Assembly: GCF_030013205.1 (NCBI RefSeq)
Contig: NZ_CP122648.1
DNA from: Escherichia coli
GTDB lineage: Bacteria; Pseudomonadota; Gammaproteobacteria; Enterobacterales; Enterobacteriaceae
Length of the DNA stretch: 64,000 nt
Direction: 5' to 3' (one strand)
A program made the position numbers. How positions within the stretch are numbered: position 1 is the first letter of the stretch; the number at the start of each line of letters is the position of its first letter. This document shows, one piece after another, positions 33,001 to 35,141 of the stretch.

Positions 33001-35141
33001 AACATTATTATGGTCTGTGGAATGCCGCGCGTGAGCAAATCGCCCGCCATTTGGGCCACCCTGTGAAACTGGAAATTGAACCGGGTCGCTTCCTGGTAGC
33101 GCAGTCTGGCGTGTTAATTACTCAGGTGCGGAGCGTCAAACAAATGGGTAGCCGCCACTTTGTGCTGGTTGATGCCGGGTTCAACGATCTGATGCGTCCG
33201 GCAATGTACGGTAGTTACCACCATATCAGTGCCCTGGCAGCTGATGGTCGTTCACTGGAACACGCACCAACGGTGGAAACCGTCGTCGCCGGGCCGTTAT
33301 GTGAATCGGGCGATGTCTTTACCCAGCAGGAAGGGGGAAATGTTGAAACCCGCGCCTTGCCGGAAGTGAAGGCAGGGGATTATCTGGTACTGCATGATAC
33401 GGGGGCATATGGCGCGTCAATGTCATCCAACTACAATAGCCGTCCGCTGTTACCAGAAGTTCTGTTTGATAATGGTCAGGCGCGGTTAATTCGCCGTCGC
33501 CAGACCATCGAAGAATTACTGGCGCTGGAATTGCTTTAACTGCGGTTAGTCGCTGGTTGCATGATGACTTGCCTCCAGCGACGGAGTTGACACTGAATGG
33601 CGACGTACCAGCGTCGGACTAAAGACATTAGTAATTTCCGGGAGAGGGCGATTATCCGCCAGCGCCAAAGCCAGTTCGGCAGCCTGGGTCGCCATCGTCA
33701 CGATTGGGTAACGCACGGTGGTCAGGCGCGGGCGCACATAGCGTGACACCAGCACATCATCAAAGCCAATTAACGAAATTTCGCCCGGTACATCAATACC
33801 ATTATCATTGAGAACGCCCATCGCACCCGCCGCCATTGAATCGTTATAACAGGCTACCGCAGTGAAATTTCTTCCTCGTCCCAAAAGCTCGGTCATTGCC
33901 TGTTCGCCGCCGCTTTCGTCTGGTTCGCCAAATGTCACCAGCCGGTCATTGGCCGCAATACCACTTTCAGCAAGGGCATCGTAATACCCTTGTAGACGAT
34001 CTTCGGCGTCAGAAATAGAGTGGTTAGAGCACAGATAACCAATGCGGGTATGACCTTGCTGAATTAAATGACGCGTAGCCAGCCAGGCACCGTAACGATC
34101 GTCCAGAGCAATACAACGGTTTTCGAAGCCAGGCAGGATACGGTTGATCAGCACCATACCGGGCATTTGCTTCATTAATGAGGCTAAATCGGCATCCGGG
34201 ATCATTTTGGCATGGACGACCAACGCAGCACAGCGATGGCGGATCAGTTGCTCAATGGCCTGACGCTCTTTTTGTTCGTTGTGGTAACCGTTGCCAATCA
34301 ATAAAAAATTACCGGTGTGATAAGCCACCTGTTCGACCGCTTTCACCATTGCACCGAAAAACGGATCGGAAACATCACCAACGACCAGACCGACCGTTTC
34401 AGTGGTCTGCTGCGCCAGCGCACGGGCGTTGGCGTTCGGGTGATAGCTAAGAGACTCCATTGCACTATGCACAGCCAGTCGGGAAGCTTCGCTGGCTTTG
34501 GGTGAATTATTAATGACGCGGGAAACGGTGGCGACTGAAACGCCTGCCAGTCGGGCTACATCCTTTATGGTCGCCATGAAAATACCTTAGTGGGTAAACG
34601 CTTACATTCTTTCAGTGTTACGGAAAACGCCCGTTGGTTCAAGGGGTGGCGTGTTTTCATCGTGGGAATGTGAGCCAAACGCAAATAAGTAAGACAAAAA
34701 AAGAGATTGCAAACCTTTGGTTACACTTTGCGAAACGCTGTTGCGATTGACCGCTGGTGGCGTTTGGCTTCAGGTTGCTAAAGTGGTGATCCCAGAGGTA
34801 TTGATAGGTGAAGTCAACTTCGGGTTGAGCACATGAATTACACCAGCCTGCGCAGATGCGCAGGTTTTTTTTTGCCGGTCATCAATCTGTAACAGTAACC
34901 GACAATTTACACACCTCGTTGCATTTCCCTTCATTCCTTTGCGTTTTCTCGCTGGCGAAGAGTCGTCGTGCAGACCACAATCAAGATCCCAGAGGTATTG
35001 ATTGGTGAGATTATTCGGTACGCTCTTCGTACCCTGTCTCTTGCACCAACCTGCGCGGATGCGCAGGTTTTTTTTCGCACCTAATTTACTGTCGCTCGCG
35101 TTCTTTATCTCGTGTAATCTCCCTCCATTCGCTTTTACTGA

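What the first reader, a model, noticed from the sequence alone, without database searches (positions are those of the whole stretch)
34791..35075. Tandem paralogous sRNAs OmrB and OmrA between galR and aas
Two sequences of roughly 80 to 90 nt share identical 5' ends (CCCAGAGGTATTGAT) and near-identical terminator hairpins but differ in the central region. This is the known OmrA/OmrB pair that represses outer-membrane protein mRNAs. The six-frame track puts spurious ORFs over this area.
Basis: partly seen in the sequence, partly recalled or inferred. Interest (0 to 1): 0.35.

Follow-up and report, generated by a model that had tools for sequence, protein, structure and literature searches.

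The report
Known E. coli sRNA pair OmrB/OmrA
The two repeated ~85-base sequences are the well-studied Escherichia coli regulatory RNAs OmrB and OmrA, sitting in their usual place between galR and aas and essentially identical to the laboratory strain K-12, so this finding is correct but ordinary.

Summary
Confirmed and already known. Rfam's OmrA-B model (RF00079, threshold 40 bits) hits 34791-34872 (+, 86.1 bits) and 34988-35075 (+, 96.6 bits). The 585-nt galR-aas intergenic region is identical to E. coli K-12 MG1655 except for one extra T after the first copy's terminator. The copies share 20 of 21 bases at the 5' end and 31 of 34 at the 3' end, but only about 47% in the centre. Their promoters are also more alike than chance, so a whole ~200-bp unit was duplicated. 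In 49 copies from about 30 Enterobacterales genomes the terminator stem is always paired, with compensatory changes, and the central hairpin is kept despite sequence turnover. The window's 5' seeds reproduce the published csgD site and give strong ompT and ompR duplexes. The short ORFs over the area are not conserved. Mechanism, from the literature on identical sequences: OmpR-activated, Hfq-dependent RNAs that pair through their 5' end with mRNAs for outer-membrane proteins, curli and flagella regulators, and ompR itself. Nothing here is new. Side observations concern other species.

The parts
33546..34577 (-). galR coding sequence (343 aa), divergent left-hand neighbour
   Evidence: ORF. Annotated as galR in matching E. 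coli genomes and in K-12.
34712..34731 (+). omrB promoter upstream activator box AACCTTTGGTTACACTTTGC (-79 to -60). It contains the OmpR/RstA-type GTTACA at -71 to -66 and corresponds to 'box B2' of PMC13425233.
   Evidence: Nearly invariant across 14 Enterobacteriaceae omrB-position promoters. T-75 and A-68, whose mutation abolishes RstAB activation and strongly impairs OmpR activation (PMC13425233), are at 34716 and 34723.
34737..34749 (+). Second conserved omrB promoter box, GCTGTTGCGATTG (-54 to -42). It is probably the paper's 'box B1'; this is inferred, because the figure was not seen.
   Evidence: Conserved block; coordinates. PomrA has TTGCGTTT at the matching position (alignment).
34779..34784 (+). 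omrB -10 hexamer TAAAGT (-12 to -7). The weak -35 region, CGCTGGTG, lies at 34752-34759.
   Evidence: Position relative to the annotated 5' end, and conservation of TTGnTAnAGT. The simple sigma-70 scan reports no + strand site between 34400 and 35400.
34791..34872 (+). omrB, 82-nt sRNA. Nt 1-21 form the single-stranded 5' seed. A GGUG/CACC helix encloses the UCAACU/GGUUGA hairpin. The terminator stem is at 34845-34866, followed by a U-tail; the T-run continues to 34873.
   Evidence: Rfam RF00079, 86.1 bits, E = 2.3e-15, full model. Identical to K-12 b4445. Fold, terminator, covariation.
34888..34948 (+). omrA promoter upstream region with three conserved boxes: TGTAACAG (-100 to -93), CACACCTCGTTGCA (-78 to -65) and TCATTCCTTTGCGTTTTC (-57 to -40).
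   Evidence: Conserved across 14 omrA-position promoters; coordinates. Sequence upstream of -60 is required for OmpR control in vivo (PMC5175337).
34975..34981 (+). omrA -10 region CCACAAT (-13 to -7), with C at -13 and -12, the feature linked to sigma-S dependence.
   Evidence: Invariant CCACAATCAAGAT block. The review PMC12692685 describes the C at -12/-13 and the RpoS dependence of omrA but not omrB.
34988..35075 (+). omrA, 88-nt sRNA. It has the same 5' seed as omrB (one difference, at nt 16), a GGUACG/CGUACC central hairpin, and a terminator stem at 35048-35069 followed by 8 U.
   Evidence: Rfam RF00079, 96.6 bits, E = 6.4e-18. Identical to K-12 b4444. Fold, terminator.
35163..37322 (+). 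aas coding sequence (719 aa), co-oriented right-hand neighbour. The 87-nt spacer holds a conserved CTCGTGTAATCT block at 35109-35120.
   Evidence: ORF, annotation, spacer alignment.

Best explanation
These are the genes omrB (34791-34872) and omrA (34988-35075) of Escherichia coli, two tandem, independently transcribed paralogous small RNAs that act in trans. Each has its own promoter, and each promoter needs the phosphorylated response regulator OmpR of the EnvZ-OmpR envelope and osmolarity sensor. In addition, omrA depends on the stationary-phase sigma factor RpoS, and omrB can be activated by overproduced RstA. Each transcript ends at an intrinsic terminator whose U-tail, together with the body of the RNA, binds the chaperone Hfq. 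The almost identical, unstructured 5' 21 nt pairs with target mRNAs: ompT, cirA, fecA, fepA, ompR-envZ, csgD, flhDC and others. Pairing blocks translation initiation and often speeds decay. The divergent central regions give each RNA some private targets. Because ompR is itself a target, the pair forms a negative feedback loop on its own activator. Shown here: identity, anatomy, conservation, structure covariation, seed-target complementarity. Taken from the literature on identical sequences: OmpR, RpoS and RstA control, Hfq dependence, and target repression.
For: Rfam RF00079 hits both copies at 86.1 and 96.6 bits against a threshold of 40, over the full model. The 585-nt intergenic region is identical to K-12 except for one extra T in a T-run, and K-12 annotates omrA (b4444) and omrB (b4445) there. 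The locus is present in 5,423 of 5,426 complete E. coli genomes. Both RNAs fold with a free 5' end, a central hairpin and a terminator (z = -2.9 and -2.7). In 45 distinct homologues the terminator stem is paired in 100% of cells, with three pairs changed on both sides, against none in six slid controls. The central hairpin persists although its sequence changes. Promoter boxes are conserved, and the published functional residues T-75 and A-68 are present. The seeds give duplexes with csgD at -80 to -60 (dG -25.9 and -30.1 kcal/mol, better than all 49 background regions), with ompT at +2 to +21 (background fraction 0.02-0.04) and with ompR at -39 to -10 (0.02-0.10). The csgD site matches the location given in PMC12692685. 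Direct activation by OmpR-P in vitro is reported in PMC5175337, OmpR ChIP binding at omrA and omrB in PMC3945435, and 5'-end pairing in PMC2588501 (abstract).
Against: Nothing contradicts it. Limits: expression, OmpR binding and Hfq dependence were not measured for this strain and cannot be with these tools. The simple duplex test did not separate cirA, a validated target, from background (fraction 0.31-0.45). The generic sigma-70 scan finds no promoter for either gene, which fits activator dependence but is not positive evidence. The cross-species set was seeded with the exact 15-mer, so conservation of the seed in that set is partly by construction.
Confidence: 0.98

Rival explanations
1. 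The repeats are short protein-coding genes or parts of them, that is, the six-frame ORFs of 38-78 aa over the area are real small proteins.
For: Six ORFs overlap the two RNAs, and two of them share the peptide IPEVLIGE because the 5' ends are identical.
Against: The two sense ORFs that cover the 5' ends start upstream of the transcription starts (34717 and 34968, against starts at 34791 and 34988). The ORF starting inside OmrA (35002) has no stop before the terminator. All six acquire frame-shifting indels or in-frame stops in Citrobacter, Enterobacter and related genomes. The sRNA lengths vary by 1-3 nt between genera, which does not fit a conserved reading frame. The conservation pattern is that of a structured RNA, with compensatory changes in stems.
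Confidence: 0.01
2. The aas-proximal copy acts mainly in cis, as a leader or attenuator of aas-lplT. In that reading, aas is expressed by read-through of the OmrA terminator and so comes under OmpR and RpoS control.
For: In most loci examined the nearest copy lies 64-180 nt upstream of aas and on the same strand, while the galR side is variable.
Against: The terminator is strong: a 9-bp stem with 6 G-C pairs followed by 8 U. It is maintained by compensatory changes. The spacer carries its own conserved promoter-like block, CTCGTGTAATCT. One species has 2.8 kb inserted between the sRNA and aas, and the Dickeya locus has no aas hit. The trans-acting function is documented experimentally. At most this would be an additional minor effect.
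Confidence: 0.05
3. The two units are copies of a generic dispersed repeat (REP/BIME-like or a mobile-element remnant) with terminator-like hairpins, and are not dedicated genes.
For: They are tandem direct repeats with palindromic ends.
Against: There are only two copies in 64 kb, and a median of one locus per E. coli genome, with a maximum of two. The few plasmid-database hits are records of 0.7-4.9 Mb, not small mobile plasmids. The position is syntenic across genera. Each unit has its own specific conserved promoter boxes.
Confidence: 0.005

Closest known systems
OmrA and OmrB of E. coli K-12 MG1655 (b4444, b4445; formerly RygA/RygB, SraE; Rfam RF00079)
   Same: The mature RNA sequences, both promoters, the spacing (197 nt start to start), the orientation and the flanking genes are all identical.
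   Different: There is one extra T in the T-run after the OmrB terminator: 9 T here, 8 T in K-12. The 9-T form is the commoner E. coli allele, found as an exact 70-mer in at least 3,100 of 5,409 genomes.
Other tandem paralogous enterobacterial sRNA pairs that share a seed but have different promoters (my own knowledge: Salmonella SdsR-type and RyhB/IsrE-type examples, Vibrio Qrr1-4, Pseudomonas PrrF1/2)
   Same: Duplicated Hfq-dependent sRNAs with a shared seed, overlapping regulons and partly different transcriptional inputs.
   Different: These are unrelated in sequence, and none matches RF00079. The comparison is by analogy only and was not tested here.
MicF and MicC, the OmpR-linked porin-regulating sRNAs
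   Same: They belong to the same EnvZ-OmpR envelope-remodelling circuit, use Hfq-dependent base-pairing near translation start sites, and target outer-membrane proteins. PMC13425233 mentions the OmpR-MicF-CpxR circuit.
   Different: Different sequence families, single-copy genes, different targets (ompF, ompC). No hit to them in this window.

Membership tests
OmrA-B sRNA family (Rfam RF00079) | Covariance-model score at or above the curated gathering threshold (40 bits) over the full model | tested here: met
   86.1 bits (34791-34872) and 96.6 bits (34988-35075), model positions 1-87 of 87, not truncated.
OmrA-B sRNA family (Rfam RF00079) | Invariant single-stranded 5' seed CCCAGAGGUAUUGAU at the transcript start | tested here: met
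   Exact in both copies and unpaired in the OmrA fold and in the Rfam consensus structure; the OmrB minimum-energy fold pairs some of these bases (nt 7-9 and 12-15). Nt 17-20 (GGUG), which lie outside the search pattern, are also invariant in all 49 homologues.
OmrA-B sRNA family (Rfam RF00079) | Rho-independent terminator (GC-rich stem, 4-nt loop, U-tail of 7 or more) that also serves as the Hfq-binding 3' end | tested here: met
   9-bp stems followed by 8-9 T. The stem is 100% paired in 45 distinct homologues, with 3 pairs changed on both sides. Hfq binding itself was not tested.
OmrA-B sRNA family (Rfam RF00079) | Location in the galR-aas intergenic region, co-oriented with aas, as two tandem units in Escherichia | tested here: met
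   galR at 33546-34577 (-), aas at 35163-37322 (+). Same layout in K-12 and across Enterobacteriaceae.
OmrA-B sRNA family (Rfam RF00079) | Assignment of each copy: OmrB is the 82-nt galR-side gene, OmrA the 88-nt aas-side gene | tested here: met
   Lengths and sequences identical to K-12 b4445 and b4444. Central regions group by type across Enterobacteriaceae.
OmrA-B sRNA family (Rfam RF00079) | Own OmpR-dependent promoter upstream of each copy | tested here: inconclusive
   The promoter DNA is identical to that shown to be activated directly by OmpR-P in vitro (PMC5175337) and bound in ChIP (PMC3945435). Boxes are conserved and T-75/A-68 are present. OmpR binding cannot be shown by sequence alone, because OmpR lacks a strong consensus.
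OmrA-B sRNA family (Rfam RF00079) | 5' seed complementary to validated target mRNAs | tested here: met
   csgD at -80 to -60, dG -25.9 and -30.1 kcal/mol, better than 49 of 49 background regions. ompT at +2 to +21 and ompR at -39 to -10 fall in the top 2-10%. cirA is not separable from background.
OmrA-B sRNA family (Rfam RF00079) | Hfq dependence and repression of targets in vivo | not testable with these tools
   Known for the identical K-12 RNAs (PMC2588501, PMC6443205, PMC12692685). Needs an experiment in this strain.

The most novel reading that the evidence does not exclude
The most novel reading that the evidence leaves open concerns the near-invariant placement of an OmrA-type gene directly upstream of aas on the same strand. 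This might reflect functional coupling, for example partial terminator read-through that puts the lysophospholipid-recycling operon aas-lplT under OmpR and RpoS envelope-stress control. The common 8-T/9-T polymorphism of the OmrB terminator tail might then tune termination or Hfq loading. Nothing in the data requires this.
Probability: 0.07. Interest if true: 0.3.

Novelty: already known. Interest (0 to 1): 0.08.

Why it matters
For the genome scan it matters only as a correct annotation. This strain carries an intact, canonical omrB-omrA locus, which standard RefSeq/PGAP annotation of an exact-match strain leaves unannotated, and the overlapping short ORFs should be discarded. Biologically, OmrA and OmrB link the EnvZ-OmpR envelope sensor to outer-membrane composition, iron uptake, curli, biofilm and motility, and they feed back on ompR. 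All of that is established. The locus offers no new question here.

Tried and rejected
1. The generic sigma-70 promoter scan of 34400-35400 found no + strand site at all, so neither sRNA promoter was detected. It is uninformative for activator-dependent promoters.

2. I considered an OmpR motif scan and dropped it. ChIP-based work found no significant OmpR motif (PMC3945435), so I relied instead on identity to experimentally tested promoters and on the conservation of boxes.

3. RNAalifold on MAFFT alignments of the OmrB-type and OmrA-type subsets recovered the outer helix and the terminator. It missed or only partly found the central hairpin because of indels. Per-sequence folding replaced it.

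Only the Enterobacterales loci were used, and two non-enteric loci served as negative controls.

5. The duplex prediction for cirA did not stand out from background. The simple RNAduplex approach with a 21-nt seed is too crude for that target.

6. The coding-gene, dispersed-repeat and pure cis-leader readings were rejected (see the rival explanations).

Full report
**Observation.** The 15-mer CCCAGAGGTATTGAT occurs exactly twice in the 64-kb window, at 34791 and 34988 on the + strand. About 0.11 matches are expected by chance even when two mismatches are allowed. The repeat finder reports a 24-nt 5' repeat (96% identity) and a 38-nt 3' repeat (89%), 197-203 nt apart. Both units end in a 9-bp GC-rich stem with a 4-nt loop followed by at least 8 T. 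The units are 82 and 88 nt long. They share 20 of 21 bases at the 5' end and 31 of 34 at the 3' end, but only about 47% in the centre.

**Identity.** Rfam's OmrA-B covariance model (RF00079, gathering score 40) matches 34988-35075 at 96.6 bits (E = 6.4e-18) and 34791-34872 at 86.1 bits (E = 2.3e-15). Both matches cover the full model, and both are on the + strand. The neighbours are galR (33546-34577, -) and aas (35163-37322, +).

A 1.1-kb query around the locus matches 5,423 of 5,426 complete E. coli genomes, and the exact matches are swine-associated strains. The 585-nt intergenic region is identical to K-12 MG1655 except for one extra T in the T-run after the first terminator. K-12's curated annotation places omrB (b4445, 82 nt) next to galR and omrA (b4444, 88 nt) next to aas.

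The 9-T form is the commoner allele in E. coli, found as an exact 70-mer in at least 3,100 of 5,409 genomes. Hits in the plasmid database are records of 0.7-4.9 Mb, which are not small mobile plasmids.

**Structure.** Both RNAs fold into a free 5' region, a GGUG/CACC helix that encloses a central hairpin, and the terminator (z = -2.9 and -2.7 against shuffles).

To test the structure independently I scanned one genome per species for the 15-mer. Most hits were chance matches in unrelated phyla. The Enterobacterales loci all carried RF00079 hits where enough sequence was available, and two non-enteric control loci carried none.

In an alignment of 49 copies (45 distinct) the terminator stem is paired in 100% of cells. 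Three of its pairs change on both sides (U-A to C-G, G-C to A-U, C-G to U-A; 18 cells), and none do so in six slid controls. The GGUG/CACC helix never varies, so it is uninformative for covariation. The central hairpin is retained although its sequence differs between genera, for example UCAACU/GGUUGA, GCAACG/CGUUGC and UCGGCG/CGUCGA. One caveat: the set was seeded with the exact 15-mer, so conservation of the seed in this set is partly by construction.

**Promoters.** Each copy has its own upstream region.

- Across 14 Enterobacteriaceae the omrB-position promoter keeps AACCTTTnGTTACACTTTGC (window 34712-34731, -79 to -60), GCTGTTGCGATTG (34737-34749, -54 to -42) and a TAAAGT -10 hexamer (34779-34784).
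- The omrA-position promoter keeps TGTAACA (34888-34894), CACACCTnGTTGCA (34910-34923), TCATTCC-TTTGCGTTTTC (34931-34948) and CCACAATCAAGAT (from 34975).

The two promoters are more alike than chance (global alignment z = 4.1; 0 of 2,000 shuffles reach the observed score). They share a skeleton of GTT(A/G)CA near -70, TTGCG(A/T)TT near -46 and CGCTGG near -36. The duplicated unit is therefore the whole ~200-bp promoter-plus-RNA cassette.

The literature on identical DNA supplies the function:

- Phosphorylated OmpR directly activates both promoters in vitro, and a PomrA truncated at -60 loses OmpR control (PMC5175337).
- OmpR binds at omrA and omrB in ChIP, but it has no strong consensus, so a motif scan would not be decisive (PMC3945435).
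- omrA, but not omrB, depends on RpoS, which is linked to the C at -12/-13 (PMC12692685). That C is present at 34975-34976.
- Overproduced RstA activates only omrB. The T-75C and A-68G changes abolish RstAB activation and strongly impair OmpR activation (PMC13425233). Those residues are T34716 and A34723 here, which also supports 34791 as the transcription start.

**Mechanism.** The published model is Hfq-dependent pairing of the shared 5' end with target mRNAs near their translation start sites (PMC2588501; PMC12692685). I tested the complementarity with the window's own 21-nt seeds against four K-12 target leaders. The background was 49 translation-initiation regions taken from the window.

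| Target | Predicted site | dG OmrA / OmrB (kcal/mol) | Background fraction at or below this dG |
|---|---|---|---|
| csgD | -80 to -60 | -25.9 / -30.1 | 0.000 |
| ompT | +2 to +21 | -19.3 / -17.8 | 0.02-0.04 |
| ompR | -39 to -10 | -16.9 / -19.0 | 0.02-0.10 |
| cirA | -40 to -9 | -13.6 / -13.6 | 0.31-0.45 |

The csgD site is where the literature places it, 60-80 nt upstream of the start codon. cirA is not distinguishable from background with this crude method. Hfq binding, OmpR binding and repression in vivo were not testable here. They are inferred from sequence identity to the characterised genes.

**ORFs.** Six ORFs of 38-78 aa overlap the RNAs. The sense ORFs that cover the 5' ends begin upstream of the transcription starts. 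The one that begins inside OmrA has no stop before the terminator. All six acquire frame-shifting indels or in-frame stops in related genera.

**Context and side observations.** The nearest copy lies 64-180 nt upstream of aas, on the same strand, in almost every locus examined. The exceptions are a 2.8-kb insertion in Enterobacter sp. BIGb0383 and the Dickeya locus, which has no aas hit. The spacer contains a conserved CTCGTGTAATCT block (35109-35120) that looks like aas's own -10 region.

Single-copy species reproduce the chimeras described in PMC13425233, with an omrB-type promoter driving an OmrA-like RNA in Lelliottia, Superficieibacter and Enterobacter sp. BIGb0383. Siccibacter colletis, however, keeps only an omrA-type unit. 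In Pantoea the two copies are 2 kb apart, with an FtsI-like ORF between them. In Serratia and Edwardsiella the paralogues resemble each other more than they resemble E. coli OmrA or OmrB.

**Verdict.** This is a textbook locus, essentially identical to K-12, so novelty is nil and interest is low.

Noticed in passing
L080 3957-4446 (Siccibacter colletis, galR-aas intergenic region): Only one OmrA-B gene is present (4132-4050, -). It has an omrA-type promoter (TGTAACAG...CACACCTGGTTGCA...CCACAATC) and an OmrA-like RNA, and no omrB unit is detectable in the 488-nt region. PMC13425233 states that in single-copy species it is always the omrB promoter that is kept, so this looks like an exception.
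   Followed up: partly
L030 2747-4879 (Pantoea stewartii); also L059 and L076/L077: The two OmrA-B copies are about 2 kb apart instead of about 200 nt. They are separated by a 579-aa ORF that looks like an FtsI/PBP3-type transpeptidase (identified by eye, not searched). Copy 1 follows an 843-aa ORF that overlaps the galR start and was not identified. Copy 1 is short (75-76 nt) and has almost no central hairpin (dG -0.4 to -1.6 kcal/mol).
   Followed up: partly
L066 10379-10746 (Serratia grimesii); L079 3475-3753 (Edwardsiella ictaluri): The central regions of the two paralogues are more similar to each other (0.76 and 0.67) than to E. coli OmrA or OmrB (0.49-0.65). In Enterobacteriaceae, by contrast, copies group by type. 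This suggests gene conversion or independent duplication outside Enterobacteriaceae.
   Followed up: partly
window 34865-34873: The only difference from K-12 in the whole galR-aas intergenic region is a 9-T run instead of 8 T after the OmrB terminator. The 9-T form is an exact 70-mer match in at least 3,100 of 5,409 E. coli genomes, including O157:H7 strains.
   Followed up: yes
window 35109-35120: A conserved block, CTCGTGTAATCT, lies in the 87-nt spacer between the OmrA terminator and the aas start codon and is shared across Enterobacteriaceae. It is probably the aas promoter -10 region, which argues that aas does not rely on read-through from omrA.
   Followed up: partly
L002 (NZ_CP062203.1, exact-match strain K_EC180), corresponding to window 34578-35162: The RefSeq/PGAP annotation of this strain has no feature between galR and aas. 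omrA and omrB are unannotated there, although they are identical to the K-12 genes.
   Followed up: yes
window 63496-63791 (-): Three tandem tRNA-Met (CAT) genes, identical over the Rfam-matched 74 nt and spaced 109-110 nt apart. This is consistent with the metZ-metW-metV initiator tRNA cluster expected about 28 kb from aas in E. coli (identification from memory).
   Followed up: partly
L027 5962-8766 (Enterobacter sp. BIGb0383): About 2.8 kb is inserted between the single OmrA-like gene and aas, breaking the otherwise near-universal adjacency of the sRNA and aas. The contents were not examined.
   Followed up: no
PLSDB records NZ_OL790696.1, NZ_CP134663.1, NZ_CP141089.1, NZ_LN868944.1: The only 'plasmid' hits to the locus are records of 0.7-4.9 Mb, labelled non-mobilizable. 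Three are the size of an E. coli chromosome and are apparently filed as plasmids by mistake. The 0.73-Mb Salmonella record was not examined.
   Followed up: no
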